64,000 nt of DNA from Amoebophrya sp. A120 (lineage: Eukaryota > Protista > Dinoflagellata). Location: positions 3,475,573-3,539,572 of the forward strand of contig CAJINV010000006.1 of the NCBI GenBank assembly GCA_905178155.1, read 5' to 3'. The notes below the pieces were generated by a model. The model did not search any database, was not told the origin of the DNA, and saw only the letters and a list, made by a program, of their open reading frames with translations. The position numbers and the translations under genes were made by a program. Of this stretch, positions 22-59,573 are shown piece by piece. Every line of letters starts with the position of its first letter. Position 1 is the stretch's first letter.

Positions 22-2367
22 GCGGTTCTTCAGTTTTTCCACTTCGTGCACGCGCTCGCCCAACTTGCTTCCCGTGTAGCCGCTGACGTAGCCCGACAAG
101 AGGAAAAAACCGCCGACGATGACATTTTCGTGTGTCATATGCAATACAAATTTCCCGCCCATGTACAAAATGCATCACAAATTTCACCAATTTGGAGCGT
201 AAAACTTGTCATGCTAAACTAGGATCGAAGCCAAGTTTTGTCATGCGGAGACCGCATTTGTACGTGTACGGGAAATTTGCTGTGGATATGTCAGAAACTT
301 CAGGAGCGGCAGCGAGATCTGGTTCTGCTTCTCGTGTCGTGCCGTCGCAAGTGCCGCCGGTATAAAGTGGCCGATGATGATGGGTAGAACTAGCAAAAAC
401 CTACACCCATCCAAGGAATCCAAATGCGGTTTGCTTCCCGGCAAAGGCGCGCCCCCCGGCCCCGTGGTGAGTTGGCGACTCGCAGCTCTAGTGCCAGCAG
501 CAACGGGGGTGAGGGACCGGGGAACAGTAGGAAGATTTTCTGGTTTTTGTTTCCCGGACAGAAAAGTCGTTTCGATCTGCGACTGCTCCGCAGACGACGG
601 AACCTCGACGACGGCGGGGGCAATTCCGCCGTAAATACCCTTCGACTGGAGAAATTGGATTTTGCTCTGGCGGATCGTGTATGAACTGCAAAAGTATCGT
701 ACTCGTATGAATGCATTACAAATTTTCTCAGCATGAGAAATAAAATTTGTAATGCTGATATGCCTTGACAAAGAAATTTGTAATGCAAGACGTGCATTTA
801 TACGAGTACGATACTTTATTTGCACAGCATACCGTGTCCGACCCAATCCCCACGTTGATCGCAGATTCCAAACTCGCAATCGTGCTGTTCGAATGCATTG
901 CAAAAGTATGTAGTAATTGCATCTATCGTTCGTTCGTTGTGGATCGGCTCTGCCGACCGGGTAACCCATCGCCTCGCATACAAATGACCGACATAGGCGA
1001 ACCCCGTTGCGGGACATACAAATTGGCCGTGCGGAAGGGCCCTAAGCGCTACATACATAGTTCACCCTAAGCGCCTACCACTTCGGTCGGGACTGAGTCT
1101 ACCTGGTCCTGGGCATCTATGCATTACAAATTTTGCTTTTATGGTAAATCCGCATTAGCATTACAAATTTTCTTTGTCATGCTGAGCTAATTTGTAATGC
1201 AATTTTTACAAGTAGTACGATACTTTTGCAATTCATAGTTCGAATCTGACCGTCGGAGGGTGGACGACCCCGGCGCGGGATATGACACCCTCAGAATGGA
1301 AATCCTCAAAGTGGAAATAATTTGTGATGCATGTAATGCGACACCAAAAAGTCTGTATTGCAGAGAACGTAATGGAGGCCGACTACTGTGCTTCTACGGG
1401 TTCAGAATTGGGATGCTGATTAGCATGACAGAAGGGCACCCCTTTGCCTACCTAGCATGACAGACACGTTTTGAGTGCCCGGGAAATTTGTCATGCGCCG
1501 ACTAGAAATGGTGCTCCAACTGGAGTCGTTTTTTTGCATTACAAATTTTTTTCACTTTGAGGATTTCCAACCTGAGGCTTTCATACGGGAAGCCCCAGAG
1601 GACCGGTTTGGAGTTGTTGGCCTCCATTATGTATCAAAAGTAAAAGGGTCTGGGTCTGGAAACTTGTGATGCTGCGTGGCGTCTCATGATGAGGCTACAG
1701 ATGCTGGCTCAGCATGACAAGTTTCCGAGCTCCTAGGTGTTGCCTATTCTGCATGACAAACTGCGCTTCAAAAACGGAGCTCTTGGGTAACGTGCATGAC
1801 AGATTTAAGAGTCATGCCAGACAAGCATGACAAACATGAATTCTGCCAGACCCAGACATTTTCACAGTTGATATTACCACTGTTTGTTCCTAGTTGTTCC
1901 CTGCTAATTTGATTAACCTCTCCGCCGGTTGAAGATGCATTCGAGGGGTCGTTGGAGGTGCCGCTCCCCCGCGCTGGTGTATGGAAGCGTCAGGATTGAA
2001 ATCGTCAAAGTTGGAGTAATTTGCAATGCATAAAACGGATACCAGTTGGTACCTAGTTTTCAAGTGGCGCATGACAAATTTGGGTAGAACTACCGGGATC
2101 CAGTTTGTAATGCTGTTTGGGTAAGGAAGCCGCCTTCTATCATGCTACTTTAGCACCTCTATTTCTACCCCTCAACAGGCTTACCATCTGTCTCCCTTGC
2201 CTACTCTGCTAGACCGGCTCTTTGTGGGTTGCATTTTATGCATCACAAACTATCTCATTCTCAACTTTGTCGATTTCAAACCTGACGCTTCCATATGGTG
2301 CCGTTCCATCGTACGCGCTATGGTATTCGCGAGAGCGACGCCGCAGATTCTTGTGGGTGAGCATCAT
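1..2367 (-). CDS. Acyltransferase family 3 (OafA/YrhL-like, Acyl_transf_3) membrane protein; 3' end beyond window
   Basis: Removing 6 introners (+5 nt each) gives one frame MMLTHKNL...HLDSLDGCRFLLVLPIIIGHF...VIVGGFFLLSGY; LDGxR..H and FFxLSGY are Acyl_transf_3 hallmarks. Start uncertain. Confidence 0.8.
138..288. mobile_element. Introner family A (TIR TAT..AAATTTCCCG)
   Basis: DR TGTCA. Confidence 0.9.
680..831. mobile_element. Introner family B (TIR TAT..TGCAAAAGTATCG)
   Basis: DR TCGTG/CCGTG. Confidence 0.85.
892..1237. mobile_element. Introner family B with nested insert
   Basis: DR GTTCG. Confidence 0.85.
927..1112 (-). mobile_element. 186-bp SINE-like insertion nested in introner 892-1237
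   Basis: 8-bp duplication GCATCTAT at 919-926 and 1113-1120; (AACG)3 tail at minus-strand 3' end; no TIR. Confidence 0.65.
1281..1585. mobile_element. Introner family D (TIR TATGGAAGYGTCAG-like)
   Basis: DR CGGGA. Confidence 0.9.
1632..1873. mobile_element. Introner family C (TIR TATCAA..GTCTGGGTCTGG)
   Basis: DR TTATG/TTACC, frame restored. Confidence 0.85.
1980..2295. mobile_element. Introner family D
   Basis: DR TGGTG. Confidence 0.9.
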
Positions 2368-4080
2368 TTTGGATATTACTGCACTGTAAATTTTTCAAAG
2401 ACATAAATACCACGTTGCCCCCCTTACGCCGAATGTCTTCTCCTGGGCGCCGGGAAGAATAAACTAATAATGCTACGAAAATAACTAGAACTACATCATG
2501 ATCATTTGCCAAAGGACTTGGACTTGTTGCGGCGAGATACAAAAAACACAGCGAGAGCATGATGAAAAACGAATTTATCGCCCGCCCGGAATAGACGTGG
2601 TTGGACGATGAAGCGAAAACATTTATCAGGTGGTATTTTCTTTTTTCAACGTGAAGATTATATACGAGCCCGACTTCTGACGAGTAAGTACCTCTTCCCT
2701 TGAACGATGAAACACACAATAAACACTGTATTGTCATCACCGAAGAAGTAGTTGTTTCGGAAAGGTAAAAGAACTTGTTCGCTTCAATAAATTCACAACC
2801 GAGTATTTGCATCAAGTCGACCATCAGCTACCCACCCCAATTTTTCAGAACCTCTTTGCGCAAGTCCTCAAAGAGTCGCGGAATACGAAGAAGCGAGAAG
2901 CGTACGAATCAAAAATAGCAGCACTTTATAACTTTTTCGCCCTAGATCGACGGAGGTGGCAGCTTGGTACCACCAGCAGCCCCAGGCACCAGCGAAAGAA
3001 CATCATCGACGCAGGAACTCTACTTGTACATCTTCCACCTCTTTCCCTTTCGCTTGTTCTGTAGTTTTCATCCTCCTAAGTAAACGCAGCCACCCCTGCA
3101 GGCCGCGAGCCTCATTTTCTTGGAAGTTCTTGTTGTTTCCATCGATTCATCTTGCATGCCGTGCCTCGACAAGTATGCTGCATGTAGATGTTGTACAAGT
3201 GGTGCCAAAGCATAATTCCTGTACTCAAGTGTCACAGCATAGATACGTAGTCGTGTAAAGCTGCTGCTCATCTTCGTGGGAAATAGATCACACGTGGGCA
3301 GCAAGGTGGTCGTTGTATAGATGAACCTACGTGGAAGTTGTACAGGAACTTGTTCGTTTTTTAATATGGCCTCGACGTAGTTTTTCAAGAACATGAATTT
3401 GAATTTCAATCATTGTACACGACGGACTTGTCTATATCGTAATCATACATGGGAGAAGTGAAGTGAAGTCTAATCTTCTCATCATACAGATACAACCAAC
3501 ATGGGATAAAATTAAATAAAACTAAAACTTCTCCTACAAGCACAGTGCATGATCCTCTCCTACAGGCAGGAGATGATCCACTGATTCCTCCTGCAGGCTG
3601 CAATGATTACGAAAAAAGAGCACTATGAACTACACCGCGAGAAGCGCTGCCGTTCTTTCGGGTGGCACTGTACCTGAAGTGGTTATAGTTGTACCACTTC
3701 AGGACGACGCCCTTTGGAGGCCTCGCACTTCTGGCGGGACATAATTACTTAGTACCTACAAAGCAACTTTTTTAGGCGAAGATGACGCGACAGAAAATCT
3801 CCGGCAACTAACTTTGATCGAGACGGGAAGGAGTCGGATAATTTGGCACTTACCACCGGCGGTAGTACATTTTTAGTATTCTTAACCTTATACTATACCA
3901 GATACGACTCTATAAGACCACTCCCATCTACAACTTTGTCCGAGTCATCTATTGGAAGATCTCCAAGAAGATAATTTGCCTGGTGAGCCGGGTCATCTTC
4001 CCCGAATTAAAATTATACAGGCTTATTCTTGATCGCTTTGAGATCTCGTCCGCAACATGGCGTGGCTTTGAGTTGTTCTC

Positions 4081-6649
4081 TCAGCTGTCTTTTTGTTTGT
4101 TTCCCCGTTTTGTTCCACAACATCGGACAAAGCGCCGACGTAGCCTTTCACCCAAGCCACGGTCCGCCTGGCGCGCGCGCGTTACCTTTTCCCACCCTTC
4201 TGGCGTCCAGAGAGCGTTTCCGCGTTCTACCGGTGCAATTATGGTAGGGAAAATAAACGGGGCCCACGCCCCACGGTCAAGATGGGAATTTTTTTGCAAC
4301 ACAAATCCAGAAGCTACTTCGGGAGTCACGCATGACAAGTCTCTAGCACAACTAGCTGTCGCGTGGTGCAGATTCGCAAGAAGGGCAGCCACATCTTCAA
4401 CACAGAGCCATCTGCTTATGATCCTATTTATTATACGTTTACACCATCACAAATGCCGAAACACGAATGTGTCTCATGGGCGGGATCATGCGCATTACAA
4501 ATCTTGCTGTAGATGCGAATCTCCATGACAACTCTGAGGTGCAGTAGTGGGCCTCGTTTTTCGTCAGGATACAAAAAGTTGTCGCCTCTTCATTCACCAC
4601 CCCTCCATATTCCTCGTAGGAGCAGTCGTACACTTCATAGCTTTTGTCCTCCGACGAGGTAGCTCTAGTACTACTTGGGATGTGGATACTAAACTCCGCA
4701 GCAGCTGGAGGTAGCGGCTGGTGTTTGTTGTTCCAATACCATTTGTCCCCACAAATTTCCATTACCCGTTCTCTTCCTTCAAGTTGATGCGCTTTTCGGA
4801 TAATTTCTGGTGATACGATTACCACCTCGGAAACCCATGATTGGGTTTGAAACCAGGGCCAGCGGTTCACGGGCTCGGCAGGCGTGTGGCGAAGCGTGAC
4901 GGCGACCTTGCGCAGTTCTGCATAATTACGGCCGTGGTTATCCGACGTGAGGGCAAATTTAAACTCAGCGGTGAGCTTCGGGCGGCGTTCCGCCACGTAA
5001 AAAGCGCCACTTGAAACGGGCTCGTGTCCACTGTACTCTTGAAACAGGACGGCATTATTTAAACTGCTGTCTCTGTAAACCGAGGTGCGGTAGTAGATGG
5101 CTTCCTCACGGCTCTCTAGACGAAGCGTCACCTGTCGGACAGGTGACGCTTCGTCTGGAGAGTCGTCAGGAACAGGAAGCCATCTCCAGTCCACAACGGG
5201 CTTCTTCAACTCTCCCGGTGCTAGCAACAAAGATATCCAAGAAAAAAACTCCCTTAGTGTAGGTCTAGGTGTGCTGGTGGTGTCATTGGTTTTTAATTGC
5301 ATGACAAAATTCCTCTGCATCACAGAGAAGTCCTCTTGTCATGCACAGCTAGTACGTGAAAACACGTACGAAAGCAAGACATTAATATGGCTGGTACGCA
5401 TTACAAGTGTGCCTCCTGCGTTGCATGCTTTCCACGTAATACAGACAATACACCACTACACTGCTTTTTTCTTGCATAAAAGACGCCGCGCGTTCAACGT
5501 CGGCGATCGGCGGAAAACCTTGGCGAGTTGTCTCCGCTGCGTCAGTATCAAATGTAAAAATGTCTGGGTCTGGAAGAATGCATGTTTGTCATGCTTGTCT
5601 GGCATGACTCTTAAATCTGTCATGCGCATTGCCCAAGAGACGTTTTTTTCTGTCATGCGGAGACGCAGTTTGTCATGCAGAATAGGCAACACCTACAAGC
5701 TCAGAAATTTGTCATGCTGAGCCAGCACTTGTGGCCTCCGTATGCTACGCCACTCAGCATCACAAGTTTCCAGACCCAGACATTTTTCCATTTGATAGTC
5801 AGACTCGCGGCGCCCGCCGATCGGCGGAACCGTCAGCAGCACCTCTCTCGGCGCCATCAAGTGGGACGGCGCTTGACCACCACGGCGAAGCCCACTGCTG
5901 GCGCTACCGCCCTCCTCCCTCCGTACTTCATGTCGAGGCTGGTACGCAAGCAGGCTGCGTAGAAAGTTACGCGCAAAGACGGTAACCACGCGCGACCGCT
6001 GCAGCTGGGCCACCTGGTTTGGGCCCTCAATGCTGGCCCCCAATGCGGTCCGACCCCAACCGCGACCGGCAGTGGCTAGGCTTGTCTTTTCTTCCTTGGT
6101 TAACAGAGAGCGAGGCTCTCCGTCTAGGGACCCTCCACCTAGGTGCTCGGCAGCGAAAGGTTGCTGGACCGCATTCATAGCTGATGAAGATCTTGCATCA
6201 ACCGCCCCAGCGACCGGCTCTACTTCTCTGCCGCGGGAGAGAACAGTGCTAACAAGCGGGCGCTGCTGGGCAAGGAGGTTCGCAAAATCTGCGGAATACG
6301 CGTGGTTCTTCTCAATACGTCCTTCTTCGGGAGCAACAGCACCCCCGTCGATCCGGATGGGAGCGAAGTAGTCTTCCAAGTTGGCAACTGGAAGTACAGC
6401 CTCGTCTTTGCTGGTTGTACCACGAGTAGGCGACCGTCCGGCGCCACGACTCCGTCCCGACGAGGAAGGGCTTCTACTTGGCCGCCCTCGGCCAGCACCA
6501 GAAGAGGACGACACCTGAAGTTCCAGGGCTTGGCACGTATAAACGACACTGCTCGACGTCATACTTTCCGATAAAAGAAGCAAGGCCGCCGCGGTGCTGC
6601 CGGCCAACTTCCACGACACAGACGAGGTTTTGGTAGTTTCCTTCATCAT
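4081..6649 (-). CDS. Hypothetical protein with signal-peptide-like N-terminus
   Basis: ORF-track segments 5693..6649, 4439..5323 and 4081..4392 join in frame across 3 introners; last junction has a poor DR, so C-terminus less certain. Confidence 0.6.
4240..4571. mobile_element. Introner family E (TIR TATCCTGAGTAAAAACG-like), diverged
   Basis: TIR and core motifs; poor DR. Confidence 0.75.
5234..5478. mobile_element. Introner family L (TIR TATCCAAGAAAAAA)
   Basis: DR AAAGA. Confidence 0.9.
5546..5797. mobile_element. Introner family C
   Basis: DR GTCAG. Confidence 0.9.
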
Positions 6650-8205
6650 TATTGTGCAACTTCTACTACTTTGCTAGAAGTGCTGTTTTACTTACAAATG
6701 GAAAGGAAATGTCTCCTCCTTTCTTGTCACGAATTTGCAGGTGAAGACAATGGCTTGAAAAACTTCGATATTACGGGTGGAAAAATAGTGGGTGTCAAAC
6801 GTTATAGAGCGATCTATAATCGCTATGGTCAGAGTAACAATTTTTTGTAAAGAATAACAATTCGTCTAACTAGGATCTTCTGCACAGAGGTTTTTTCGTA
6901 ACTCAAAGTTGTACTAGGTGAAAGTACGTAGAATTACAAGCTGTTGAACTGTGGGGAAGACCAACATGATTTGGCAAGTGCATGTTGTCTGTCACAACAG
7001 AATATTAGAACGATCTCGGAGGCCAGGCGGGTGCGAGTACGACATACGCCGCGCCTGCGAAATTTTTCATCAAGTCAGGATCCTGAATTTTATCCACCGA
7101 ATGTAGGTCTTGTACCGACCCCACCTTCGAGGGGGACTGCTTAGAATTGCGAGTTTTTCGTGACCAGCAGCGAGAGAGCACAAAAACAAGAAACGACCGC
7201 GGATTTTGTCATTTTGATCTTATTGGATGATCCTGTCTATAATTTTGGTCGTGATGTGGATCTGCCGACGCTTGGCACACGAATCCAAAGAACCGATATG
7301 GAAGATCTGAGTTCTTGCCTGCGACTTCTGATCAGGTTGAGCTGCTGAGGTCCTCGTGGATCTGGGCCTTCACTTATTTCTCGGGCCTGCAGATCTGAGG
7401 ATGCACATTGTTCGCGAAGATCGCTCCTCGACCTTTCTTTGCAAACTGATCGAAAAAAATAGAAAAAAAGGACCATCATCCGGAGGCAAAAGAGCACCGT
7501 CTGCGAGCGTCTCGATAGCACTGGTACAAAACCAGAAAGAACTCCTAGTGCGATTTTCTCAATTTGCGATAGCAATGCAGAGCAATACACGACCTTAGGA
7601 TCATCACGAAGTTGCGCGCCTGCGCGCAATAAAATGTGCAACTGGTGCAGCACTGCTGAAAATGAAAAACTCTGCGAAAATAAATTATGAGAAGGTGATT
7701 GATACGGATGTACTGCAAGTAAAAACTTCTCAGCATGATTTGTCATCCGATCACTCACAACGTCGTCATGATCTGTCGTCATATAAAGCGATGTTGAATG
7801 GGCTCGTTTTATTCATGTTGGTCCCTTCAGGGTGCAACTGCAATGTAAATGCTGCACCTTATCGGTAGAAAGATTAAACCCTGCTGGGCGACGAGGAGAA
7901 ACAAATCCGACCTCCTGGGCGAGGAGAAGCAAACAGTTACCGTATTTGCACTTCTGCTTTCGCGATTTGATATAAATAAACTCTGATCATGTTCATGTTG
8001 TAAAAATGTTCAAAAAATAAAGGCAGTTTTTAGTTGTTGAAGCGCAAGCGTAAAAAGTCGTGGTGGTCATTAGATTTTACTAGCTGATCTTTTAAATTTG
8101 ATGCAGCAAGGATTATCGTCTTGCCTTTAGTCTTGGTAGTCCTCTCGTCGGTTTTTGCGTGATCATCATCGCGTGTGAATACTCATAGACTCGTCGCTGT
8201 AGTCT

Positions 8206-11200
8206 TCACAATGGCCCCTCCTGCTTCTCCAGTTCCCGAATCAAATCCCAATCCGCCCAGGGCACGTACTTTATATGAAATGCAAAATAAGCATCGTACT
8301 AGTAGAAATCGCATGACAAATTCCCTCAGCATGAAAAATGGAATTTGTCATGCGGATTGAGGTTGAGAAGGAGATTTGTAATGCGTGGTTGCGATAATGA
8401 CTACGAGTGCGATACTTTTATTGCACAGGATACTTTATCTTCCCCGACACAGCGTCCTTCTTCATGTGGTTTTTCCGGAACACGCACCTTTGCATATCCT
8501 GCGTAAAAACGTCCCCGCGGCCCCATAGTCAAGATGATGGGGAATCTGCTAGACAAATCCGCCAGATTTTGTTGTTTCGCATGACAGGTTTGCGATTGCC
8601 CCCACAGTCGCACCCGGTTTAGCTAGTTCAGCAGCATCACAGATCTAGAATATCATGCTGATTCTAGCATCACAAATTATCCCCGAACACGACTAGAAAA
8701 TGCTTCTCATGTGGCTCCGCATGAGAAACTTTTTTGCAGGCATGCAGATTTGCATTGCAACTCTGGGGTTGGGACGTTTTTGCCCAGGATATTCCAACAT
8801 GTTGAAGTCTTCGTCCCACATTTTTTTCCACATGTAGAGCCAGAACACATGCTATGAAATGCAGGAGCATCGTACCAGTATAAATCGCATGACAAATGAT
8901 CTCCTCAGCATGAGAGAGAGAGATAGAATTTGTAATGCGGATTCAACTTGAGAAAGAAATTTGTGATGCATGAATGCGATTAGTACGACTACGATACTTT
9001 TGCACAGGATACATGCGACTCCCTGACGATCTCCATTGCCTGCTTGCATTGGTGGTTCAGCCTGTCCATGTCAATTGGCTCAGGTTTGCTGGAGCTGCGG
9101 CATTCTTCGTCTCCGTCGGTTTTCAGCCACAAGTCGTACTCTTCCTTGTCGTACATATGCTTCAAAACTTTCGAACTGCTGGCTCGGTAGTTGTCCTGGT
9201 CGTAGAATTCTTCTTCAAATTCGCACTTGATTACATATGAAACGCAGATAGGTCTGGGTCTGGAAGCTGCTTGCCGGGTTTGTCATGCATATTTTGCATG
9301 TCCACTGATTATCTGTGATGTATGTATGCCCTAGAAGCATCACAGACGTCTAGAACTCTTCCTGTTCCTGATCCTGATATGCCTATTCCGCATTAGAAAT
9401 GCCCTACACATTGCAATTTTTTTCGAATCCGGAGACAGCATTACAAGTTGCAACCTTCCAGAGGACCCAGACATATTTGCAATGCGTATTCCAGCTTCCT
9501 TCTCAAATTCTTCGATTCCCACCGAGTCGAAGTTTTTCAGGTGCCAGTGCTTGTACGTTTCGAACTCATTCAGACACTTCTCCACGAAAGATTCAGTGTA
9601 TGAAAGTGGAAATAAAGAACTCCTCGTCGTTGTTAGTTGTCCCCCTCATTTCCAAGGCATGATAACCACTCGTGCTATAATGCTTGCAGCTGCCCGTGCC
9701 CCCGCGTCCTAGAACTGCGCTGCATCTAAGAAGTTGCAGCACGACTACGGTAATAAACTGCGGCGCTAGCATCTAGAAGCACTTCTTCTCGTCCTCAGAA
9801 GTAAAAACTACACGAGGATCATTGTGCCTGTTAGTGCTTCATCTCTTGCTGGTGTTCATGCACAACTTGAATCGAGATGATAGTGAGCGGGGAGGGGGCG
9901 AGGTCGAGGGGTGACACAAGTAGAGCAGTTCTCTTTGTGGTCCACTTTCATACAATGCTGCTATCGTGATGCTCGGGATCGCAGACGTGGTGCCAAGGCT
10001 TCAAAGTCCCCGAATAGTGAACCACGGCGATGCGAAGGCGGCCACTGAGATTTCATTTTAATATTGTGTAGCTGAATGTAAAAATTACGAGCATTTTTGA
10101 ACTCGCAGTGGCACTCGATGAAATTGGAATCATAATTCGAAAGACGAGAAAGCTTGGCTTCATAAGGCTGCAACCAATAACATACATAGAAGAAAAACTC
10201 GCCCTGTTGAAAAGAAAAAAAATTATCAATCTTACATCGGATCCAAGTATCGCTTGCGTTCCGCACAATTAAGCGGGTTCATGTTGTGAAAAATCTGGTG
10301 CTATCAACTGTAAAAATGTCTGGGTCTGGAAGATTCTGACACTTGTCATGCACGGTTTGCATGAGACATGATGTCTGTGATGCATGCCCTAGCATCACAG
10401 GTTTTTTGCGGGATTCTTGATGCCTATTCCGCATGATAAATGCCCTCTCCGCGTAGCAAAAATTAGAATCCTTTTGCTGCTCATGCAACACAAATCTTTT
10501 AGACATCCATATGCAGCATGACAAGTTGCATTCTTCCAGACCCAGACATTTTTACATTTGATAGGTGCAGCTGAAAATTGAACCGAACAGAAATGTTGTG
10601 CCAGGGGTAGTCGGCAAAGTAGCGCGACAAGAAATCCTGCTCCGGCGCGGTGGTGTTGATGTGCTCCGGGTGTCGGGTCGTTTTCACAACCGTACACACG
10701 TCCTGAAACCGCTTCGCGTCCGGCTGAAACAGCATGTATCCAAGAAAAAAACGTGTGTAGGTGTAGCTTTGTGCTGCGGAAGATGCTAGACGCTTACGTT
10801 TGTCATGCTGGACATGCATCAGAGGCTCTTTTCGCACTAGTTTTCACTGATACTAGCTACGCATGACAGGTTTTCTCTGTCATGCAGAGCAAACTTGTGA
10901 TGCTGTTCCTCCAAGAAAGTTAAACTTACACAGTTTTTTACTTGCATAGCATGACCCCGGCGTTGATCCCCGTTCCCTGGAAAAACGCCTCCGGCCACTG
11001 TTCATTTTCCTTCGGTGCTTCGGGGCCGGACAGACCCTTCCGGAAGAAGTTGGTATGCAGCGCAAATTATATGTCTGGGTCTGGAAGAGTGCAAGAACTT
11101 GTGATGCTGCATTTGGATCCTAGAAAAATTTGCGTTGCATGAGCAGCAATGGGTAATGAGAGTCTTGCTAGGTGGAGGGGGCATTTGTAATGCGGAATAG

Positions 11201-18674: not shown

Positions 18675-19012
18675 ATTTTCCTCGGAAATTGAATCGCGGT
18701 GCTATGGTGGTGGTTTTGGCCTCGCTTCGGGCGTGTTTTGCTGCCGCGCTCGCTACCCAAAAAAGGGAGCCCGGGAAAGCCAGCAAAACAGACCAGGCCC
18801 CAGACTCGCCTCGAAACAAGGCAAAAAACGGCGCCATACCGTCGCGATTCAATTTCCGAGGAAAACTCAGAGCCCCCTCTTCGCCATTTTCCTCGGAAAT
18901 TGAATCACGACGGCACGGGGGCGATTTTGGCCCCCTTCAGAGGGGGCCCTCCGGAGGCCCAATCCGGCCCCCCCGCGACCCCCCCTTCGGCATTTTCCTC
19001 GGAAATTGAATC
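18675..19012. repeat. Four copies of TTTTCCTCGGAAATTGAATC (one inverted)
   Basis: Copies at ~18675, 18846 (inverted), 18886, 18992. Confidence 0.85.
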
Positions 19013-23500: not shown

Positions 23501-23832
23501 CAAATTGAAGCTCTTCTCGTTAGGTAAACCCGCACTACAAATTGCATTTCTCATGCTGAGAAAATTTGTCATGCGATTTATACTAGTACGATGGTAGTTT
23601 TGCACAGGATACTGTCGCCCTTGTCACTGTCCCGTGCAGGGGGTGACATTTCGGGAGAGGCTTCTGGAGACGCTTCCGGGGATGCAGCAGGTGAGTTCGG
23701 GCTCCCAGCTTCGTCGGACGCAGCAGCTAGAGCTTCGTCTTTGCTGCTGCCTTCCGTTTTCTGCTTGTCACCTTGTTCTTTGCTTTGGTCTTCGGCGGAA
23801 GTTGGCTTTTCCGAGTCGCCAAGTTGAGTCAT
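20553..23832 (-). CDS. Hypothetical single-pass membrane protein
   Basis: MTQLGDSEK...VYLVLYVIGIVGVIMLL (TM)...QGKFE*; frame continuous across 10 introners + 1 GT-AG intron. Confidence 0.65.
20605..20763. mobile_element. Introner family B
   Basis: DR CTGGA. Confidence 0.9.
20804..20918. mobile_element. Introner family K (short hairpin type), diverged
   Basis: TIR TATCCCCAAAAAAAGACGCATGATCC; DR degenerate; frame restored. Confidence 0.7.
20985..21205. mobile_element. Aged introner
   Basis: TATGCAAGG...CAATGCATA; DR CATTG/CCCCG; frame restored. Confidence 0.7.
21487..21650. mobile_element. Introner family B
   Basis: DR TCGTT. Confidence 0.9.
21824..21998. mobile_element. Aged introner
   Basis: TATGCAAGAC...GTTTCCATA; DR degenerate; frame restored. 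Confidence 0.6.
22109..22274. mobile_element. Introner family A
   Basis: DR GGACC. Confidence 0.9.
22327..22470. mobile_element. Introner family B
   Basis: DR GAGTT. Confidence 0.9.
22647..22797 (-). other. Canonical GT-AG intron containing a core motif
   Basis: GTAAAT...TATCCAG; in-frame join MANA|ASQA. Confidence 0.75.
22843..23154. mobile_element. Introner family D
   Basis: DR ACTGG. Confidence 0.9.
23171..23415. mobile_element. Aged introner
   Basis: TATGCAATG...GTTTCATA; no DR left, but 5-nt register restores frame. Confidence 0.55.
23449..23611. mobile_element. Introner family B
   Basis: DR CTATC/CTGTC. Confidence 0.9.
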
Positions 23833-25900
23833 AGTTTTTTGCAACAGACTAGGGATTGTCGTGAAAGAATAAAGTTGTTTTTTATCGATGGCAGTTAGAA
23901 GTTTAATATTTTCAGTTGAGCCAACACAAAAGAATGAAGGCAGCGCGAGGCGGCGTAGCCAATGAGTGTTAGCTTTCGGTCGCAGTAGAGTTGCGCAGGT
24001 TGGGTGGCCGCGTTTGGACAAGGTCCAGGTATGTTCGGTCGCTCGTTGCAAACCGGCGCGCGGTAGAGCCACGTGGCTGCGGCTCTCCAGCTACCAGCAC
24101 AACCTTGCAAGCAATAGGAAAATCGGATGATGAATGCATCAAGAACATACTCTCTCTTCATTGGCTCTCATGCGTCTGCCACAGTTTTGAACAAGCTGCT
24201 TTGATTACATCTCGGCTTTCCCTTTCATCTCAACTCCCTCTCAGAAACACTCGCACAACCTGAGTCACACTGCACAAGAGAACTCGTGGGCCACTGCAAG
24301 GAAGCCCTCGCCCGATTACGGGTCACGGTTTGGGGGCGCCTCCAAGGATAACGCTGAAACAAAATAAAAATGATTGCAGCGGCGCAGGCAGCAAATGGCC
24401 ATAGGTAGTCAACGAATATAACCCTGGCCGCACGAGCAGGCAGGGTAGCTGGCAATGGTAAGCCAAACGCGCGCCACTCCGCCATACGCGCTAGAGTTGC
24501 AAACCAGCGCGAAGAAAGAAGCTGGCGCGCCACACGCTGGCGGGCTCCGGGGCTTCGCTGCCGGAGCCTGCCCCCTCAGATTGATCGGCCACGCCCCCGG
24601 CAACACACGCTGAGAACCGCGCGCGCCGGCCCCCCTCCGTCCGGGCAGGTGGTATGCCGGGCCCCGGCCGCTCGCAGGTGCCGTCTCGGCGGGCCGGCCG
24701 GGCATGATGGCGGGGCTTGTTGGGCCCCCTCGACTCGCCGACAGAAGTAGAGAAATGCGGAGAGGCGCCGGGCGGCGCCTGCCTGGTAGGCGGAGCGAGC
24801 CTCCGCCTGGAACTCACACTGGAGGGGGCGCCGAGCTCTAACGGGCTTGCACTGGGTGGCGTGCTAAACTGATATACTGGGTAGCTTGAAACTGCGTGGC
24901 AACTTGGTGGAAAGCACGAGGAGGCACTGGCACGCTGCGGCCCTTTGGCTGTCCGCCCAATCTCTCTCTGCGCGCGCGCGACGGCCCTGCTGGAAAGTCG
25001 GGCCGGAGTCGATCAGGTGTCGATGGCGTGCGCGCCCGCGAGGTCAGGTCGGCCCATTTGGCGGCCCTCGCGACTTCTCTCCGCCAGCTATCGACCTCGC
25101 CGCGGCCGTCGGCGGGTATGGCGAAAAACCAGTCCCAACGGCCGCCGGGAGGACGGACGCAACACCCGCCCGCCGGAACGGACTTGGTGCCGCGCGCGAG
25201 TCATTATAACCATCGCCATTCTATTAAGTCGGCTACATTCCGTTCGTGTTTCGCAAGCGTCTCTCTCCTCTCTGCCAGGCAGCAATATTCATATAATTAA
25301 TAAATGAATGAATTTATGTTGCTGCTGCAGGCGGTGCTGGTGATCCACATCCAGCTGCAGCCCTGCATGGTCTCACTTCCGCTCGCGCTCGTTCTCTAGA
25401 ATAAAAAATGCTTCGCCGCGCCACTGTTTACACATCAGTTTGTCCATTTTCTGCTCATTCAACAGGGTCTGTAGTACAGACCCTGTGGTTCTCACGGACA
25501 GACTCTGTAAGGAGGAGCATCTACATCAACGAGAACACGACCACACTGCTCCGTCGTCGAGATAGTCATCATGTCTGACACGTAGTTTCGCCAACAAGAA
25601 GATTGCCTTAAAAGCAAAATCATCAATGGTGCTACATTTTGGCGGAAGTAGTCGAAACAGAAACTTGAAACCACACGTGTCTTTTTTTGTGTTCTTAACA
25701 ACGTCATGGTCATTCTCATTTCCTGCTCCTGCTGTTCTCGGAACATAATGAGTCTTGCTCTACTCTTGCCCGTCACTGAGGACAGCGTAGAGCCAAAAAC
25801 AAAATCTATTACACTGGCCACTACGCTTGATTTTATTTTTCCTCACAATCAGCTAGGAGTTTCAATCCCCTCCAAAACTCGTCCCAGGAAAAAATTTTCG

Positions 25901-27516
25901 TCACCTCAGCAGCGATATCTGGTTGATCCCGAAGAACCCCCAAGGCCGCGGATTCGTCATGTCCACACTGATCTTTTTCACGTTTCGTTTATCAAGTGTG
26001 AAAGTGTCTGGGTCTGGAAACTTGTGATGCTGGGGGGCGTCTCATGATGAGGCCACAGGTACTGGCTCAGCATGACAAGTTTCTGAGCTTCTAGGTGTTG
26101 CCTATTCTGCATGCCAGACTGCGTTTCTGCATCACAGAAAAATAGTGCTCTTGGGTAACGTGCATGACAGATTTAAGACTCATGCCAGACAAGCATGACA
26201 AACATGCACTCTTCCAGACCCAGACATTTTTACATTTCATATCGTTGCTTGTCGAACAACAAGTTTTGTTCGTACGTCACCTCCGACCGGGGACTCGCGT
26301 GGAAGGGTATGATCGTGCTCCAGTGCACGCCGTCCGGACTGGTTCGGATTTGTACTTTCCCCGGTGCGTAGGCCCAGAAGATTTTCACGCCGGAGAGCTT
26401 TTTGCGGTGTTTCAGCTCCCCCGCGTAAGAAACGACGTCGTTGAAGCCGTGCTTGCCGGAAGAACACCAATAACTGAAAGTAGTCGTGTGGAAGCAGGTG
26501 TTTGATAAAAAATTCAGATGATATTTCTTGTGTCTTTCTGAATGCGGGTGCTGTAACTCATCAGAGGAGAGAAGGAGAATGAAAATCGCGCATGACAAAC
26601 AACAGGAAAAGCGAAGATTTGTTTTATCTTACCCGCTGCCCAGCGCCAGCGCTTTTTCCGCCGAAAACGTGTCGTCGACATCACCTTCCGAATAGGTGGA
26701 GGTAGATTATCAAATGTGAAAGTGTCTGGGTCTGGAAGAATGCAACTTGTCATGCTGCATTTGGATTCCAGAAAAATCTGTATTGCATGAGTACCAAAAG
26801 GGCTGTAATTTTTGCTACGCGGAGAGGACATTTGTCATGCGGAATGGGCATCAAGAAGCTCTGAAAAAATCTGTGATGCTAGGGCATGCATCACAGACAT
26901 CAGGGCTCATGCAAAACGTGCATGACAAGCGTCAGAATGTTCCAGACCCAGACATTTTTGCATTTGATATAGATGCCGCTTTGTCAATGTGCGAGTAAAA
27001 CCGCATGATGAAACTGGTTTTCGGATCTGCTTTGTGTTTGTTATGCAGCAAGGGGCTGTGGTGCTGAGTAAAGTGTGTTGCAGGTGGTGCAAGTATAGTT
27101 GATGCACTCGAAGAACTGCTTGTACTTGTACTTGACGATGATGAAGATGGGTGTCTTGCTCCAGCTGACCTTCCTGTAGCACCACCGGACGATGAGAAGC
27201 TCGAGTAGTTCTGGTGACGAGCATTCTGCACCTCGTGGTTTGGTTGAAACAAAAACGACGTCGCCTGGCTCCTTCGTATTGTTGCTGGTGCGGGGTTTGC
27301 GGTTGTTCCACCGAGCGTCGGATCGGAATGATTCAGCAAGCAGGGAGGTTGAGCACAAGTGCCAGTGGTTGTATTTCGCGGCAGCGGAGCCGCTCTTCTG
27401 GCAACAAAGTTCGCCGACGACGAGGATGAAGGGGCTACTTGTAGTTTACTCGTGTTGTGAAAAAAACCGTCGAAAAGGTTCTGCGCAGGATCGAAAGCGG
27501 ACAGAACACGGCTCAT
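25901..27516 (-). CDS. F5/8 type C (discoidin/galactose-binding-like) domain protein
   Basis: Spliced: ASTSTYSEG..FSAEKALALGSGYWCSSGKH...VQIRTSPDGVHW...PWGFFGINQISLLR*; 2 introners + 1 GT-AG intron; start uncertain. Confidence 0.65.
25990..26241. mobile_element. Introner family C
   Basis: DR TCGTT. Confidence 0.9.
26474..26632 (-). other. Canonical GT-AG intron containing a core motif
   Basis: GTAAGA...TTTCAG; join GSG|YWCS. Confidence 0.8.
26708..26969. mobile_element. Introner family C
   Basis: DR TAGAT. Confidence 0.9.
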
Positions 27517-29694
27517 TTTCTTGCTTGCACGATGGAAGATAAAGATAAACGCCGTTGAGAAAGAACCTGGTCCACCTTTGTTCTGTCCTTCGCCTTCGAC
27601 AGCAACAACTACGGATGTCAATACTGAGGAAACATTTCTAACATGATCGTGTTCTGACAGCTACAATAGTACGCAGGCAGAAAGCAATCTCATTTCACAT
27701 CATGATGCGCAAGAATTCTCATCCTCCTCTCGATCTCGCATCGCAACTCCCCGAGAGCTACTATTCGCGCCGAGCATGCGATTAAAGTTGTCAACGACAT
27801 CTCTTCTCGTCATCTCTCTCTACTACTACCTCAACTTTTTCGCAACCGGTTCTGCTTCTATCAATGTACGAAATGCATGGAACAATGCCGGGGCAACGCA
27901 CTGCGCAGCCAGAACCGTTCTGAGAAGAGCGGGCCATTGGTGATCTTCCACGAGAAAATAATCTCGCCCACAACAATCACTCTACTAATGCTCCCACAAC
28001 GAGGGAGTCGAATCGCCCAAGCAAAGCGTGCGAGCCGGGCTACTTGGCTGCCTCGCAATCACTGAGAGAGAGTTTGGCGCCACCCTCCCAGGGTAGCCAG
28101 GCTGGCCAGCTGCGGCCAAAAACAAATATACCAAAGAATGGCCGGGACACCGCCCACAAACCAAGACCGCAGGCCCCGAAGGCGAAGCGAGGCAGGACGT
28201 CGCGCCGGCGGGGCGCCTCCCCCCCTCTGCCTGCCGCCTTACTTCGGCGAAACACACCGCCCCGCCGGCCCCCACTATCGCGCCCGGCCGCAGGCAAACG
28301 CGGAGGCGCCCGGGGGTCTGCGCCGACCGGGCGCTAGCCCCGCCCCGAGACAGACAACGGCGACGCCGCCACCCAGGCAGGCGGCCGCGCCAAGCCAAGC
28401 GGCGCGCGAAAGGCGCCGCCCTGCTTGGGCAAACATCACGCGCACCACACGCGCGGGCCACTCACATCAACGAACCGGGCGCGCGCGCGTCCAAGAGTGT
28501 ACTCATCGCCGGACGTGCCTCGCTGTACGGCCTCGGGGCACAGGGCGACTCTTCTTCGGGTCAACCTCCCGGCCCTCGCTCCTCCCACCCTCAAGGCAGG
28601 GCGGCGCTGCCTATCTTTTAAAGCGCCGGGCGGCCCCTGCGTGCGCGCCACGCAAGGGGGCGCCCCTCGCAAAAGGGGGGGGGGCGAGGGCCATCCCCCG
28701 AAGCCCCGCGCCCCCACGACGCGAAACACGGCGCGCGACCGACCCCCGTGCCCCCTTGGTCCTTCTAGACTGGGCGCACCCCGAAGGGCCGCGCGCCCCT
28801 CCCAAGTCCGTCGCGCAACAATGCGTCCGGCCCCGCCCTTTCGACGGACGCGGCGAACGGGGGCGACGGGGCGGCCACCCATCCCCAACAAGTCAGCGCC
28901 TGCCGCGTGTGGGCTATGAAACGGCCGAACGAAACACAGCGCGGGGCGCCCCACCCCGTGCCAGTTGTCGCCCACCGTGCCAGGTGTCGGCGGGCAATCT
29001 TCTGCAACTTGCTTGCGCCTCTTTCGCTTGAAAATGGCAGGCACCACAATGGGGGGCCTTCAGCCGGTTCGTTGGACCGGGCGCGCGGCGGGGGCGATCA
29101 GAGCCAGGCCCGGACGTGGCGCATGTGGATCCCGGAGAGCATGCGGGCCCGGACTAGTTCTCGCCGCCTTGTTTCCCTGCGCTGCGAGTACGCCCATAAA
29201 CGGGCGGACTACTTTCAGCTTTTCCGCCGACAAAAGTCGCACAAAAAGCGCCCCGGTCTCTTGTTTCAGCTGAACAACGAGAACCATTCGACCACAACAA
29301 AACGGCCTCCCCCTCATCGCTTCTCCTTCTTGTTTCTCTCCCCGAACACAATAAGAGGAGCCAGGACTTCGACTAGAAGTTTGTCCTGATTTCTTAACAA
29401 AAGACACGGCGGCTGCCCATCTGTACGCATTAGTACCTTTGCAGCCGAGTGTTAGTGCGTGCTCTTTGACTTCTACGACCACACAAAGAACAATTCGAAC
29501 TTGGAGCTGCGGTGTCACAAGCGCAATCAATCTCACTTTAGCGTCTTCTTGTTCGACATCGCGGGCGGTGAATAGGAATACTAGCTCGCTGTGCGTCACG
29601 ACGAGTAATTGCTTGCTACTCGCACGACGTCAACATGCAACACCAACATTAGAGAAAATAATATGAAATCTTTCTCACATCATCAACCACATCC

Positions 29695-32600
29695 TCACTT
29701 TATCTTCTTCGCGTGTTCTTCAAACGCCTGCAGCATTTTATCCGTCAATACCGCCTGCATGGTATCCCAAATCGGCAGGTACAACACCGAATTGACCTTC
29801 AAAAACAAGTTCAGAGACACTTCCGTTTCGTTGTCCTTTGAAATAAAAATCCAGTCGTAGACCAACCGATCCCCGTACGCAAACCCCCGCGCCCCCGTGT
29901 CCGCGATAATCCGCGCCTCCACCGTCGTAGATCCTGGACCTGCTGTATCCACTGTAAATTTCCCGTACATGTACAAATGCGGTCTCTGCATGACAAAACT
30001 TGGCTTCGATCCTAGTTTAGCATGACAAGTTTTACGCTCCAAATTGGTGAAATTTGTGATGCATCTTGTACATGTACGGAAAATTTGTATTGCATATGCT
30101 GCGCTTTCCGTCGGTTCAAACACCTCCATCTCGTACGTCACATCGTCCCCCAAAACCCCCAAAAGCGTTGTCCTAGGTAAAAACGTCCCCAATTTTTATC
30201 GGCCAGAGTCAAGAAGAACATGGAGAGTTTGCAACACAGACCTCAGAAGCTTTGGAAGTTGTCACGCATGACAAGTTGCAGTCCGTGGTGCGAGTAGCAG
30301 TGTAGGTTAATAGCAAGGACAGCCGTGAATCACGACAAAGCCGTCTGCTCAGTTTACAGCATTACATATGCCAAAATAACACGACCTCTCATCATGTTGA
30401 TGCGCATTGCAAATGTTCCTGTAGATCCGAACCTGCATGACAACTCTGGGAAGTAGGTGGGAACGTTTTTACTGAGGATAAACGTGTTGGTTTCAATCCC
30501 GAAAGCCACTTTCACCGCCGGCTTCGCCCCCGCTGGTACATTATCCGGCAACTTCTGCCCGCCCGTGCACATGGGCATCCACTGGGAGTAGGTTTCCACG
30601 TCGCGAATCATTTTGAAGGGGATTTCAATGCTATGCATTGCAAAAGCATCTACTTTTAGTACAAATGGCATTACAAATTTCATCAGAAAGAAAAATGGAA
30701 TTTGTAATGCTAATTCAGGCAAAATAAACGTAGGTTTGTCATGCGAGATTGCAATAATCAGTACGACTACGAGTAGGAGCCAACTTTTGCAATGCATAAA
30801 TGTCCATGTCCTTCAGTTTCCTCCTCACCTGTAGGTACCGCGCGAGCTGGTCCTGCGCGGCAAGTTTTTGGAACTCCCGCTTGGAAATATCCGCGAGAGA
30901 TATCCTCTGTAAAAATGTCCTCGCCCCCTAGTCAAGATGCGAAATCTGCTAGACAAATCCACGACCTGTGGGCCTGGCGCATGACAAGTTTGGGGACGTA
31001 GTAGAGTGCTGCATTATACTTGGGAAATAACCCAGACGCATCACAGATCCATTCTCTTATCCTGATTCGCGCATGACAGATTACCGAGCACGGCTGGAAA
31101 ACGCCCGTTTTGCGAAGCCGCGTGACACATTTTCATTTTCTGGGGATTGGCATTGGGATGCAGATTTGCATGACAACTTTGGGATGGGCACGTTTTTCCT
31201 CTGGATAAGTGAGGAGAGGGATTTTTTCTTCGTGAAAGGTTTGTTTGCCGCTTGGTCTGGTAAGGAAGAGGTGGCGCTGGAAGAAGGAGAGGAAGCTCGC
31301 CCGTCTGTCAGGTTTATTTCAGCATCTGCATAGGCAGCTCCGGCGGTCGAAGAAAATTGGTCAAATGGTGATGAACTTGTTCCTGTGCCATCTACTGCTG
31401 CACCTCCAGCAGGACTACTTTCACCCGCGGACCCCGTCGCAGTAGAGGAGGACTGCGGGCTCGCGAACCCTTTATAGGGTAAGTAAATTGTCGCGTTTTC
31501 CTATTCTGAGTAAAAACATCCCCACCCCAGAGTTGTCATGCAGATTTGCCATGACAGGAACATTTGTGATGCGCAACCCCATGACAGGCATTTTCAATCG
31601 TGTTTGGGAACTTGTAATGCTGTAAACAGGATCAGAAGGTCGACTTGTGATGCGGCTTTCCTTGCTAACTTGCACTACCTTACGGACTGAAACTTGTCAT
31701 GCGTGACTCACAAAACTCCTAGGTTTGTGTTGCAAAATCCCCATCCTGACTCTGGTGTGGGTACGTTTTTACTCAGGATATTTCTTTCTCCTTCAACAAG
31801 TTTTCAATCACCGTTGCCTCCTGGTAGAGCGTGTTCAACCGTTCGCGGACAGTGCCGACGTTCCCCCCGGCTTGCCAAAAAGGGATGCTGTCGTCTTCAG
31901 AGATGGCCTCGGTCGACGATTGAGTTGCTGTTGTTGTGTTGCCGGCATGCATTGCCAAAGTATCGCACTCGTACTAATTGCAAATATGCATGACAAATGT
32001 AAAACAGCATTAAATTTGTAATACTGATCTAATTTGTAATCGTAAATGCAATTTATACTACGTACGATGCTTTTGCATTTGATAGCCAATGCTGGTACTG
32101 GACGACGAGTTGTTTGGCTCATCTTCACTCTGCAATCTTCCGGAACCTTCGGTAGTTACCGTCGTTGTTTCTTCACTCAGCGGCATGCTGGAAGATTGGT
32201 GGTGGTAGCCTGTGGTGGTTTCGTTGATGAAGTCGAAGTCCTCTGCACCTATGTCTTTTCTGGATGACAAACACTCATAATGCAGCAGAATACGCGTGAC
32301 AAAACCCAGAATATTAAAAATCTCTGTCAAGAATTTAATACGCATCACGCTGAGACTTCTCTTCATCGTCTTCTTTTTCCGGGCCATGTTATCCAGGAAA
32401 AAACACCCATCCCCATCCATTTTTTGCATGACAAATAGTGGATTTTATGCATGTTTTGCATGACAAATTGGATGGGGATGGGTGTTTTTTCCTGGATACG
32501 TGTCCAACGCACTCACCAAGGAAAACTGCCACTTTAAGCCCTATCGAAATGAAAAATCCCCCCTCCCCATATCAAAACGGAACTTCTGATGCTGGATTTG

Positions 32601-35944: not shown

Positions 35945-36582
35945 TTTGTGGATAATGGAGTCGCGTTGAAGTTCTTTGCGGGTGGTGCGGATATTCGATG
36001 TTGCGCGTGCACGCACGACAGTGGCACGCAAACAACTACGCAAAAATGTTGAAATGTTTTAGTACTCGAAGCAAGTGGTAGATGATATCAAAGCAAACTT
36101 TGCTCAACAAACATTGACTATGCTATCGAATCCGGAGCGCATGGTTTCCGATAACGAAGATAAAATGATAAAAAAATGCATCTGTGCGTGACTGCTGCGA
36201 AAGGTACACTATACGTCGACCATACCATCGCGATTGATTGATTTTTCATCGTGCAAATGAATGGACGGACAAACCCATTGATTAACACACGTCTGCAATC
36301 ACACTCGCAGTCAGAACAAAACAAAAAAAAATATAGCGCGTGAGCTGGTGAGGAAGTAATCTAACCAAGTACTACTTGCTTACTTTTCATCATGAAGATT
36401 TTCGATACACATACTGCAAGAACTTTTGATCACCTCCTGCGCAAAGGAAGTTGTAATCAATCCAGTCCACCATGTTGTTGCGTTTGGTTTTAGTACAGCG
36501 GCTTTTTATCCTTATGTTTTGAAACGAACCCACCATCTCCCTCATGATGTTCGTGTTGCTTGTTTATTTCCCGTCTTGTTCT

Positions 36583-59315: not shown

Positions 59316-59573
59316 TATCAAATGTAAAAGTGTCTGGGTCTGGGAACTTGTGATGCTGGGTGGCGCCTCATGATGAGGCTACAAATGCTGGCTCAGCATG
59401 ACTTGACAAGTTTCTGAGCTCCTAGGTGTTGCCTATTCTGCATGACAGGCTGCGCTTCTGCATCACAGAAAAGCGGAGCTCTTGGGTAACGTGCATGACA
59501 GTTTTAAGAGTCAGGCCAGACAAGCATGGCAAATCTTGCATTCTTCCAGACCCAGACATTTTTGCATTTGATA
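59316..59573. mobile_element. Introner family C (apparently in 3' UTR)
   Basis: DR TCTTG. Confidence 0.9.

What the first reader, a model, noticed from the sequence alone, without database searches (positions are those of the whole stretch)
138..30096. Same element in opposite orientations within same-strand genes implies orientation-independent removal
Seen: 138-288 and 29946-30096 are both 151 bp and near-identical reverse complements (the ORF track shows the same pseudo-peptide CITNFTNLERKTCHAKLGSKPSFVM on opposite strands), yet both hosts are on the minus strand and both junctions restore frame. Likewise family C 5546-5797 versus 1632/25990/59316, and family G 14638 versus 56120. Known: spliceosomal donor, branch and acceptor signals are strand-specific. 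Inference: recognition is symmetric, via the TIR hairpin or the bidirectional motif.
Basis: partly seen in the sequence, partly recalled or inferred. Interest (0 to 1): 0.75.

Follow-up and report, generated by a model that had tools for sequence, protein, structure and literature searches.

The report
Transposon introns spliced in either orientation
Small hairpin-ended mobile DNA inserts of a class already published for the marine parasite Amoebophrya sit in genes in both directions and are missing to the base from likely messenger-RNA assemblies either way, cut at one fixed spacing without the usual GT-AG signals, which likely means a relaxed splicing machine reads their symmetric ends.

Summary
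Observation confirmed: 138-288 and 29946-30096 are 94.7% identical reverse complements. They are 2 of 97 TAT...ATA elements with 5-bp target duplications that match the published Amoebophrya A120 introner signature. All 9 families with mixed evidence occur in both orientations in minus-strand genes (largest 18:16). RNA-type contigs (one sample) lack 12 of 12 elements tested, by exactly length+5, in both orientations of one family, none at GT/GC-AG ends; a DNA-type run keeps them. Diverged duplications fix the cut 1 nt before the 5' TIR and 4 nt after the 3' TIR along the transcript, so recognition is orientation-blind but cutting is polar. The scan noted this 1+4 rule before in other windows of this genome. 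Added here: the orientation test, and a sense-strand excess of G.U-compatible changes in the TIR stem (56:33 against 181:202 inside, p about 0.01-0.02), pointing to selection on an RNA hairpin. The internal motif shows no role as a splice signal. Best mechanism: relaxed spliceosome guided by the hairpin (0.5).

The parts
138..288 (.). TIR element, subfamily A, 151 nt, perfect 5-bp duplication (133-137, 289-293); in an acyltransferase-3-like minus-strand gene
29946..30096 (.). Same subfamily, opposite orientation, perfect 5-bp duplication (29941-29945, 30097-30101); in frame and stop-free if retained
   Evidence: RNA-type contig piece ends at 29940, DNA-type contigs run into the element
38116..38273 (.). 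Subfamily A copy in the orientation of 138 (80% identical), in a TPR gene; removed with 5 nt
   Evidence: joint 38110-38274 in 4 of 4 runs; TPR_1/TPR_2 in the next exon
22109..22274 (.). Subfamily A copy, orientation of 138
56993..57143 (.). Subfamily A copy, orientation of 138
5546..5797 (.). Family C element, opposite to 1632/25990/59316
1632..1873 (.). Family C element, diverged duplication
25990..26241 (.). Family C element
59316..59573 (.). Family C element; host frame short (92 codons)
35275..35525 (.). Family C element, diverged duplication; RNA joint fixes the cut to within 1 nt of the 1+4 register
   Evidence: joint 35270-35527, 1 shared letter, 4 of 4 runs
14638..14877 (.). Family G element
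56120..56379 (.). Family G element, probably opposite orientation
41725..41891 (.). Family 0 element (orientation class of 29946), diverged duplication; joint with no shared letters gives the 1+4 register exactly
   Evidence: joint 41720-41893, 0 shared letters, 4 of 4 runs
23171..23415 (.). Singleton element, diverged duplication; joint gives the 1+4 register exactly
   Evidence: table 5c row 22843-23417 (one run), read
35595..35743 (.). Family 0 element (class of 29946), removed with 5 nt
38328..38484 (.). Family 0 element (class of 29946), removed with 5 nt in the same contig as 38116
40725..40875 (.). Family 0 element (class of 138), removed with 5 nt
   Evidence: 2 of 4 runs
41090..41241 (.). 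Family 0 element (class of 29946), removed with 5 nt
   Evidence: 3 of 4 runs
22843..23154 (.). Family 3 element, removed
   Evidence: table 5c (one run)
38554..38863 (.). Family 3 element, opposite orientation to 22843, removed with 5 nt
37146..37241 (-). Canonical GT-AG intron, 96 nt; fixes host strand
37708..37868 (-). Canonical GT-AG intron, 161 nt, with a TACTAAC branch-like motif; fixes host strand
29698..36058 (-). Host gene: 920-codon frame after removal of 16 elements, weak Polyketide_cyc match at the C-terminus
   Evidence: contig X1/3
13..2394 (-). Host gene of 138, 680, 892, 1281, 1632, 1980: 280-codon frame, runs towards the window edge
10235..17700 (-). Host gene: 1326-codon frame after removal of 15 elements, weak glycosyltransferase-8 match
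47561..53501 (-). Host gene: 1036-codon frame after removal of 13 elements
54693..58749 (-). Host gene: 625-codon frame after removal of 11 elements
138..63935 (.). Whole set: 97 TAT...ATA elements, 109-346 nt, 21,312 nt in all

Best explanation
These are MITE-derived introner elements that lie in either direction in minus-strand genes and are missing, with exactly one 5-bp duplication, from RNA-type contigs in both directions; they are likely cut out of the pre-mRNA by a relaxed U2-type spliceosome that reads the terminal inverted repeats. Shown: structure, both orientations, removal of length+5, no GT/GC-AG, a cut 1 nt before the 5' TIR and 4 nt after the 3' TIR where it can be read. Inferred: because the ends are inverted repeats, either strand presents the same intron, N-U-A-U-S ... 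S-A-U-A-N-N-N-N; the TIRs pair and bring the exons together; U+2 and A+3 act as the donor bases, A-7 as a fixed-distance branch, and the 3' cut is measured rather than read from an AG. Keeping 4 nt of the upstream duplication and 1 nt of the downstream one rebuilds the pre-insertion sequence whatever the target was, so any insertion in either direction would be near-neutral. Orientation-blind precise RNA-level removal: about 0.9; the spliceosome as the enzyme: about 0.5.
For: 5-bp duplication exact in 46 of 63 elements picked without using it (3, 4, 6, 7 bp: 1, 0, 0, 0; shuffled mean 0.10). 89 of 97 elements fall in a minus frame of at least 140 codons once removed, 87 of those 89 break it if kept. 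Coding orientation counts 18:16, 10:6, 4:2, 2:2, 3:1, 1:3, 2:1, 1:1, 1:1, binomial p 0.45-1.0. 12 of 12 elements in 34760-42500 skipped by length+5 (10 in four runs, 1 in three, 1 in two), all compatible with the 1+4 register, none with GT/GC-AG in any allowed register. Register exact at 41725 and 23171, within 1 nt at 35275. End-to-end hairpin predicted in 87 of 91 exonic elements; z -6.2 and -4.7 for the named pair. Sense TIR duplex more stable than antisense (-31.7 against -30.2 kcal/mol, 54 against 33 elements, Wilcoxon p 0.006); G.U-making against A.C-making changes 56:33 in TIRs, 181:202 inside (Fisher p 0.009; element-level sign flip p 0.017; 73 of 97 elements, the six largest families). 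U+2 and A+3 unchanged in 97 of 97 while their mirror bases at the 3' end change in 6 of 97 (p 0.029); A-7 kept in 96 of 97 while its partner +4 changes in 5. The strain with this signature is reported to keep U2, U4, U5, U6 and most spliceosomal proteins but lack U1 (PMC7789003 section 10); fritillarid tunicates show a U2 spliceosome can adapt to non-GT/AG transposon introns (PMC13326754 abstract and section 30).
Against: No G+1, no AG, no bias in first/last base pairs, and no strand-biased branch consensus (CTRAY in 7 sense against 8 antisense of 97; no 4-5-mer passes correction), although the tunicate paper holds that a first-last base interaction is conserved in splicing. A stable stem would have to be opened for U2/U6 pairing. 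The end-base asymmetry rests on 12 variant ends, 84 elements were found by requiring TAT/ATA ends, and one element (15500) lacks A-7. All RNA evidence is contigs of one sample and one study, RNA status a guess of the tool (supported by loss of two GT-AG introns); contigs drop rare forms, so levels per orientation are unknown. All hosts here are on one strand, so transcript polarity cannot be told from chromosome polarity in this window. The G.U test was one of several asymmetry tests; whole-element energy (p 0.08) and raw G.U against A.C mismatch counts (118:93, p 0.10) were not significant.
Confidence: 0.5

Rival explanations
1. Same orientation-blind RNA removal, but by a non-spliceosomal nuclease and ligase that recognise the TIR stem, cut with a 1-nt 5' and 4-nt 3' overhang and join the exons (as suspected for euglenid nonconventional introns).
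For: Random terminal bases and random duplications; fixed distance from the stem; selection signal on sense-strand pairing; no branch consensus; U1 reported missing; euglenid hairpin introns are reported to leave as circles, not lariats (review PMC11282704 section 6).
Against: U+2 is kept while its stem partner varies, and A-7 is kept while its partner varies, which reads as base-specific donor and branch needs; TIR position 4 pairs no more than chance (46 against 42), so the outer stem is loose.
Confidence: 0.33
2. The elements are excised from DNA (ciliate IES-like) in the transcribing stage, and the RNA copies the excised template.
For: Symmetric TIR recognition and random orientation are natural for a transposase; DNA from the same stage as the RNA was not tested; the joint table of the DNA-type run was cut to 15 rows of repeat noise.
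Against: DNA-type run X5 holds element-exon junctions at genomic depth. A symmetric staggered DNA cut would give two junction forms after replication at diverged duplications; one form was seen at 41725 and 35275 in four runs. G.U excess on the sense strand has no DNA-level reason once the interior control is flat.
Confidence: 0.06
3. The joints are reverse-transcriptase template switches across a hairpin between short direct repeats, and the elements are not truly removed.
For: Hairpin plus short direct repeats is the known setting for such artefacts (recalled; search found no paper with all four terms); all data are cDNA-derived assemblies.
Against: Joints with no shared letters at 41725 (four runs) and 23171 follow the same length+5 and 1+4 rule; 87 of 89 coding elements would destroy frames of up to 1326 codons if kept.
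Confidence: 0.04
4. An ordinary spliceosome uses cryptic GT/GC-AG sites near the ends, differing between orientations.
For: 3 of 71 perfect-duplication elements allow a GT/GC-AG register on the sense strand.
Against: 6 of 71 allow it on the antisense strand, so this is chance; 0 of 12 RNA joints allow it; no other joint reached 15%.
Confidence: 0.03

Closest known systems
Introner elements / non-canonical introns of Amoebophrya sp. A120 (Farhat et al. 2021, PMC7789003; read: abstract, passages, sections 10, 11, 12, 16, passages of the one supplementary text file; figures not seen)
   Same: TAT + 7 nt + A-run inverted repeats, 5-bp direct repeats, hairpin, about 240 nt (here mean 220), many families, removal from RNA without GT-AG. 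Very likely the same elements.
   Different: The paper leaves splice sites 'variable' or unknown relative to the hairpin (Fig. 3 legend, Fig. S23 legend) and its uses of 'orientation' seen concern genes. Here: both orientations per family, one fixed polar register, and a strand-specific pairing signal.
Euglenid nonconventional introns (PMC6221363 passages; review PMC11282704 section 6)
   Same: No canonical ends, stem joining the intron ends with the 3' side longer, TSD-like repeats, suspected MITE origin, unknown machinery.
   Different: Euglenid stem pairs +4..+6 CAG with -8..-6 CTG (2-nt offset) with pyrimidine|purine junctions; here +2 pairs with -5 (3-nt offset), ends are TAT/ATA and junction bases are random.
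Fritillaria borealis non-GT/AG transposon introns (PMC13326754 abstract and section 30; review)
   Same: TIR/TSD-derived introns removed precisely without GT-AG, by an adapted U2 spliceosome.
   Different: Preferred ends (AG-AC, AG-AT), U1 kept, U2AF duplicated; here ends are random and U1 is reported missing.
TIR/TSD introners of algae and other dinoflagellates (Gozashti 2022 PMC9860276 and 2025 PMC12130899, passages)
   Same: DNA-transposon origin, precise restoration of the mRNA; the 2022 method allows opposite-orientation copies.
   Different: They carry or co-opt GY/GA and AG splice sites; the 2025 pipeline required same-orientation similarity and checked splice sites, so it would tend to miss families like these. 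Huff 2016 and Roy 2023 were not held and may report two-orientation introners with canonical ends.

Membership tests
Amoebophrya A120 introner elements | Inverted repeats starting TAT, seven variable nt, three or more A | tested here: met
   position counts; definition
Amoebophrya A120 introner elements | 3-5 nt direct repeats at the exon/intron boundary | tested here: met
   5-bp repeat exact in 46 of 63; 71 of 97 in the full set
Amoebophrya A120 introner elements | Removed from RNA at non-canonical sites | tested here: met
   12 of 12
Amoebophrya A120 introner elements | Repeated families, no internal transposase, hairpin | tested here: met
   12 multi-copy families and 11 singletons, 109-346 nt
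Amoebophrya A120 introner elements | Organism is that strain; match to its published family profiles | not testable with these tools
   no genome held, profiles not available; identity inferred from the signature
U2-type spliceosomal intron (canonical) | GT/GC 5' end and AG 3' end | tested here: not met
   0 of 12 RNA joints; 3 of 71 sense against 6 of 71 antisense by register
U2-type spliceosomal intron (canonical) | Branch-point consensus upstream of the 3' end | tested here: not met
   CTRAY 7 against 8, YTRAY 18 against 14 of 97; only a conserved A at -7
U2-type spliceosomal intron (canonical) | Lariat intermediate, snRNP dependence | not testable with these tools
   raw reads X8, X9 did not map
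Euglenid nonconventional introns | CAG +4..+6 paired with CTG -8..-6; pyrimidine|purine junctions | tested here: not met
Euglenid nonconventional introns | Stem bringing intron ends together | tested here: met
   87 of 91
Euglenid nonconventional introns | Excised as full-length circles | not testable with these tools
   no mapped raw reads
MITE (non-autonomous TIR DNA transposon) | TIRs, fixed-length random TSD, no coding capacity, both orientations | tested here: met
MITE (non-autonomous TIR DNA transposon) | Autonomous partner with matching TIRs | not tested
   no genome held
Ciliate-type DNA-eliminated sequences | Absent from the transcribed DNA | tested here: inconclusive
   present in DNA-type run X5; stage-matched DNA not available
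RT template-switch false introns | Joint lies within shared direct-repeat homology | tested here: not met
   0 shared letters at 41725 and 23171

The most novel reading that the evidence does not exclude
A second, strand-symmetric splicing code: a machine that needs no terminal dinucleotides, reads only a TIR hairpin and cuts 1 nt before and 4 nt after it, so any copy of these transposons at any site and in either direction becomes a perfect intron. In its boldest form the machine is a spliceosome-independent hairpin nuclease-ligase pathway acting on tens of thousands of nuclear mRNA introns.
Probability: 0.33. Interest if true: 0.88.

Novelty: new variant of a known kind. Interest (0 to 1): 0.6.

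Why it matters
How Amoebophrya removes most of its introns without GT-AG and apparently without U1 is an open question in the source paper. Orientation-blind removal at a fixed polar register turns it into testable predictions (branch at A-7 or none, lariat or circle, which bases matter), explains why these transposons could flood coding exons at little cost (no target or direction constraint), and gives a rule that would fix gene annotation in this lineage. A sequence-independent precise RNA excision signal would also interest RNA engineers.

Tried and rejected
No whole genome held, so no genome-wide orientation counts. The joint table was swamped by repeat noise from X5 (15 rows shown, 948 not). 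Internal motif as branch or splice signal: rejected (an apparent positional asymmetry vanished when positions were counted on each strand, p 0.77). Strand-biased k-mers: none after correction. TSD composition: no GT/AG bias. Register from reading frames alone: only register 0 is excluded, at element 4240. Whole-element energy and raw G.U/A.C counts: not significant. Pfam on single exons gave mostly weak hits. Rfam: 0 matches. Literature: 10 searches found no report of element orientation or a fixed register for these introns; Huff 2016 and Roy 2023 were not held, Henriet 2019 was not read, and Farhat's figures were not visible. PMC9481584 passages were not relevant.
Full report
Observation. 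138-288 and 29946-30096 are 151-nt elements, 94.7% identical as reverse complements. The family C and G pairs are also in opposite orientations (84-88% and 69%); G is partly palindromic, so its call is weaker. The window holds 97 such elements (109-346 nt, 21,312 nt in all): 63 from a TIR-only search, the rest added with looser searches and by hand. In the 63 picked without using flanks, an exact 5-bp direct repeat flanks 46; lengths 3, 4, 6 and 7 give 1, 0, 0, 0, and shuffled partners 0.10 on average. Ends read TAT-S-N6-AAA on each strand. This is the signature published for introner elements of Amoebophrya strain A120; no genome is held, so the organism is inferred.

Hosts and orientation. 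Removing each element with one copy of its duplication in silico yields minus-strand frames of 1326, 1036, 920, 625, 531 and 503 codons across 15, 13, 16, 11, 2 and 4 elements and 280 codons across 6. 89 of 97 elements lie in a minus frame of at least 140 codons; 87 of these 89 would add stops or shift the frame if kept. At 138 retention brings 4 stops, and a weak Acyl_transf_3 match spans the insertion (E 0.069, below cut-off). Clustering on interiors with 35 nt trimmed from each end gave 12 multi-copy families and 11 singletons with no inconsistent orientation edges. Nine families hold both orientations; three two-copy families hold one. Counts in coding frames: 18:16, 10:6, 4:2, 2:2, 3:1, 1:3, 2:1, 1:1, 1:1, none different from even.

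RNA evidence. Ten runs were listed. X5 behaves as DNA (flat depth about 42 across the intergenic stretches) and its contigs run from exon into element 29946 on both sides; X1 has no depth over the G+C-rich stretch 28338-29004; raw RNA runs X8 and X9 did not map. In X1, contig 3 (2913 nt) spans 36104 to 29459, with pieces ending at 35744, 34330, 33982 and 29940, the places expected after removal of element plus duplication. Its 361 nt between 35743 and 34331 equal the length left after removing five elements; the whole is 132 nt shorter than predicted with 16 removed, which a GT..AG candidate at 32341-32210 would explain (one of 12 candidates of that length, unverified). Laying X1-X4 (one sample, one study) on 34760-42500 gave 14 joints: 12 of the 12 catalogued elements, each skipping exactly length+5 (10 in four runs, one in three, one in two), and two introns that read GT..AG on the minus strand. 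The latter support RNA status and host strand. Family 0 is removed in both orientations (38116, 40725 against 35595, 38328, 41090, 41725; 38116 and 38328 in one contig); 38116 is the 138-type orientation of subfamily A and 29946 the other. Family 3 is removed in both (22843; 38554). For family 1, pieces start at the edge of 33706 and of the opposite 26708, one side seen each. None of the 12 joints allows GT/GC-AG in any equivalent register; among 71 elements with perfect duplications 3 allow it on the sense and 6 on the antisense strand.

The cut is polar. Where the duplication has diverged the register can be read. At 41725 the joint has no shared letter and keeps 1 nt of the left and 4 nt of the right copy on +, in four runs; at 35275 the same within 1 nt; at 23171 the same exactly, in one run (table 5c). 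Along the transcript the intron thus starts 1 nt before the 5' TIR and ends 4 nt after the 3' TIR; the mRNA keeps 4+1 nt and regains the pre-insertion sequence. All 12 joints are compatible. First, last and flanking bases are random. I reached this register; the scan's notes then showed it had been reported for other windows of this genome (unchecked). All hosts here are on the minus strand, so this window alone cannot separate transcript from chromosome polarity.

What is read. Hairpin: TIR positions 8-20 pair with the far end in 87 of 91 exonic elements; the named pair fold end to end on the sense strand in opposite orientations (z -6.2, -4.7), as any TIR element would. The informative test is strand asymmetry, since a G.U pair on one strand is an A.C mismatch on the other. 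The sense TIR duplex is more stable (54 against 33 elements, p 0.006), and changes from family consensus that give G.U outnumber those that give A.C by 56:33 in TIRs but not inside (181:202), which argues against a transcription-linked mutation bias (Fisher p 0.009; sign flip p 0.017, singletons only 39:21, p 0.025; 73 elements of the six largest families). Whole-element energy (p 0.08) and raw mismatch counts (118:93, p 0.10) were not significant. End bases: U+2 and A+3 never change in 97, their mirror positions at the 3' end change in 6 (p 0.029); A-7 changes once, its partner +4 five times. This rests on 12 variant ends. Internal motif: 311 copies inside against 11 outside, strand-symmetric (p 0.77), at least 38 nt from the 3' cut, absent on the sense strand in 15 of 97; it is better read as a transposase-binding repeat (inference). 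No strand-biased branch consensus was found.

Mechanism. Shown: orientation-blind, precise, non-GT-AG removal at a fixed polar register. Inferred: the symmetric ends give the same intron on either strand; the stem juxtaposes the exons; U+2/A+3 resemble the invariant donor positions and A-7 a short fixed branch distance (recalled parallels in compact spliceosomal and group II introns, from no call). I put a relaxed U2-type spliceosome at 0.5 (U2, U4, U5, U6 reported present and U1 missing in A120; precedent in fritillarids), a hairpin nuclease-ligase at 0.33 (random ends, no branch consensus, euglenid parallel), DNA excision at 0.06, RT artefact at 0.04 and cryptic sites at 0.03.

Comparison and novelty. 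The element class is published (PMC7789003). In the sections and supplement passages read, splice sites are called variable or unknown and the uses of 'orientation' concern genes. Gozashti 2022 allows opposite-orientation copies in its method and Gozashti 2025 requires the same orientation; both deal mainly with near-canonical ends. Ten searches found no report of orientation independence or a fixed register for these introns; Huff 2016 and Roy 2023 were not held and Farhat's figures were not visible, so prior mention cannot be excluded. Verdict: real; known class with an undescribed rule; interest 0.6.

Noticed in passing
window 37146-37241 (-): The canonical 96-nt GT-AG intron carries two sense-strand copies of the elements' internal motif, the last about 13 nt before its AG; it may be a decayed element turned canonical intron, or use the motif as branch site.
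   Followed up: partly
window 892-1237: A 346-nt element with a perfect 5-bp duplication whose interior matches no family; possibly a nested or rearranged insertion.
   Followed up: partly
window 29946-30096 and 14993-15143: The only two coding elements that are in frame and stop-free if retained; natural places to look for tolerated retention or exonisation.
   Followed up: partly
window 32341-32210 (-): Candidate in-frame, stop-free 132-nt GT-AG intron that would close the length gap of contig X1/3.
   Followed up: partly
window 18200-19200, 24200-25300, 28000-29300, 42500-47500: G+C-rich stretches (up to 71%) free of elements between co-oriented genes, with local repeats; no RNA-type depth at 28338-29004. 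Probably intergenic or promoter regions.
   Followed up: no
whole window: All well-supported genes lie on the minus strand, as in the co-oriented gene blocks reported for Amoebophrya.
   Followed up: partly
window 21824-21998, 22660-22770, 26510-26700: Stretches between restored frames that hold the internal motif but no clear TIR pair; likely older, decayed elements or canonical introns.
   Followed up: no
window 4240-4571: Element with a strongly diverged duplication; removing the whole left copy gives a stop, the 1+4 register extends the host frame from 531 to 582 codons.
   Followed up: yes
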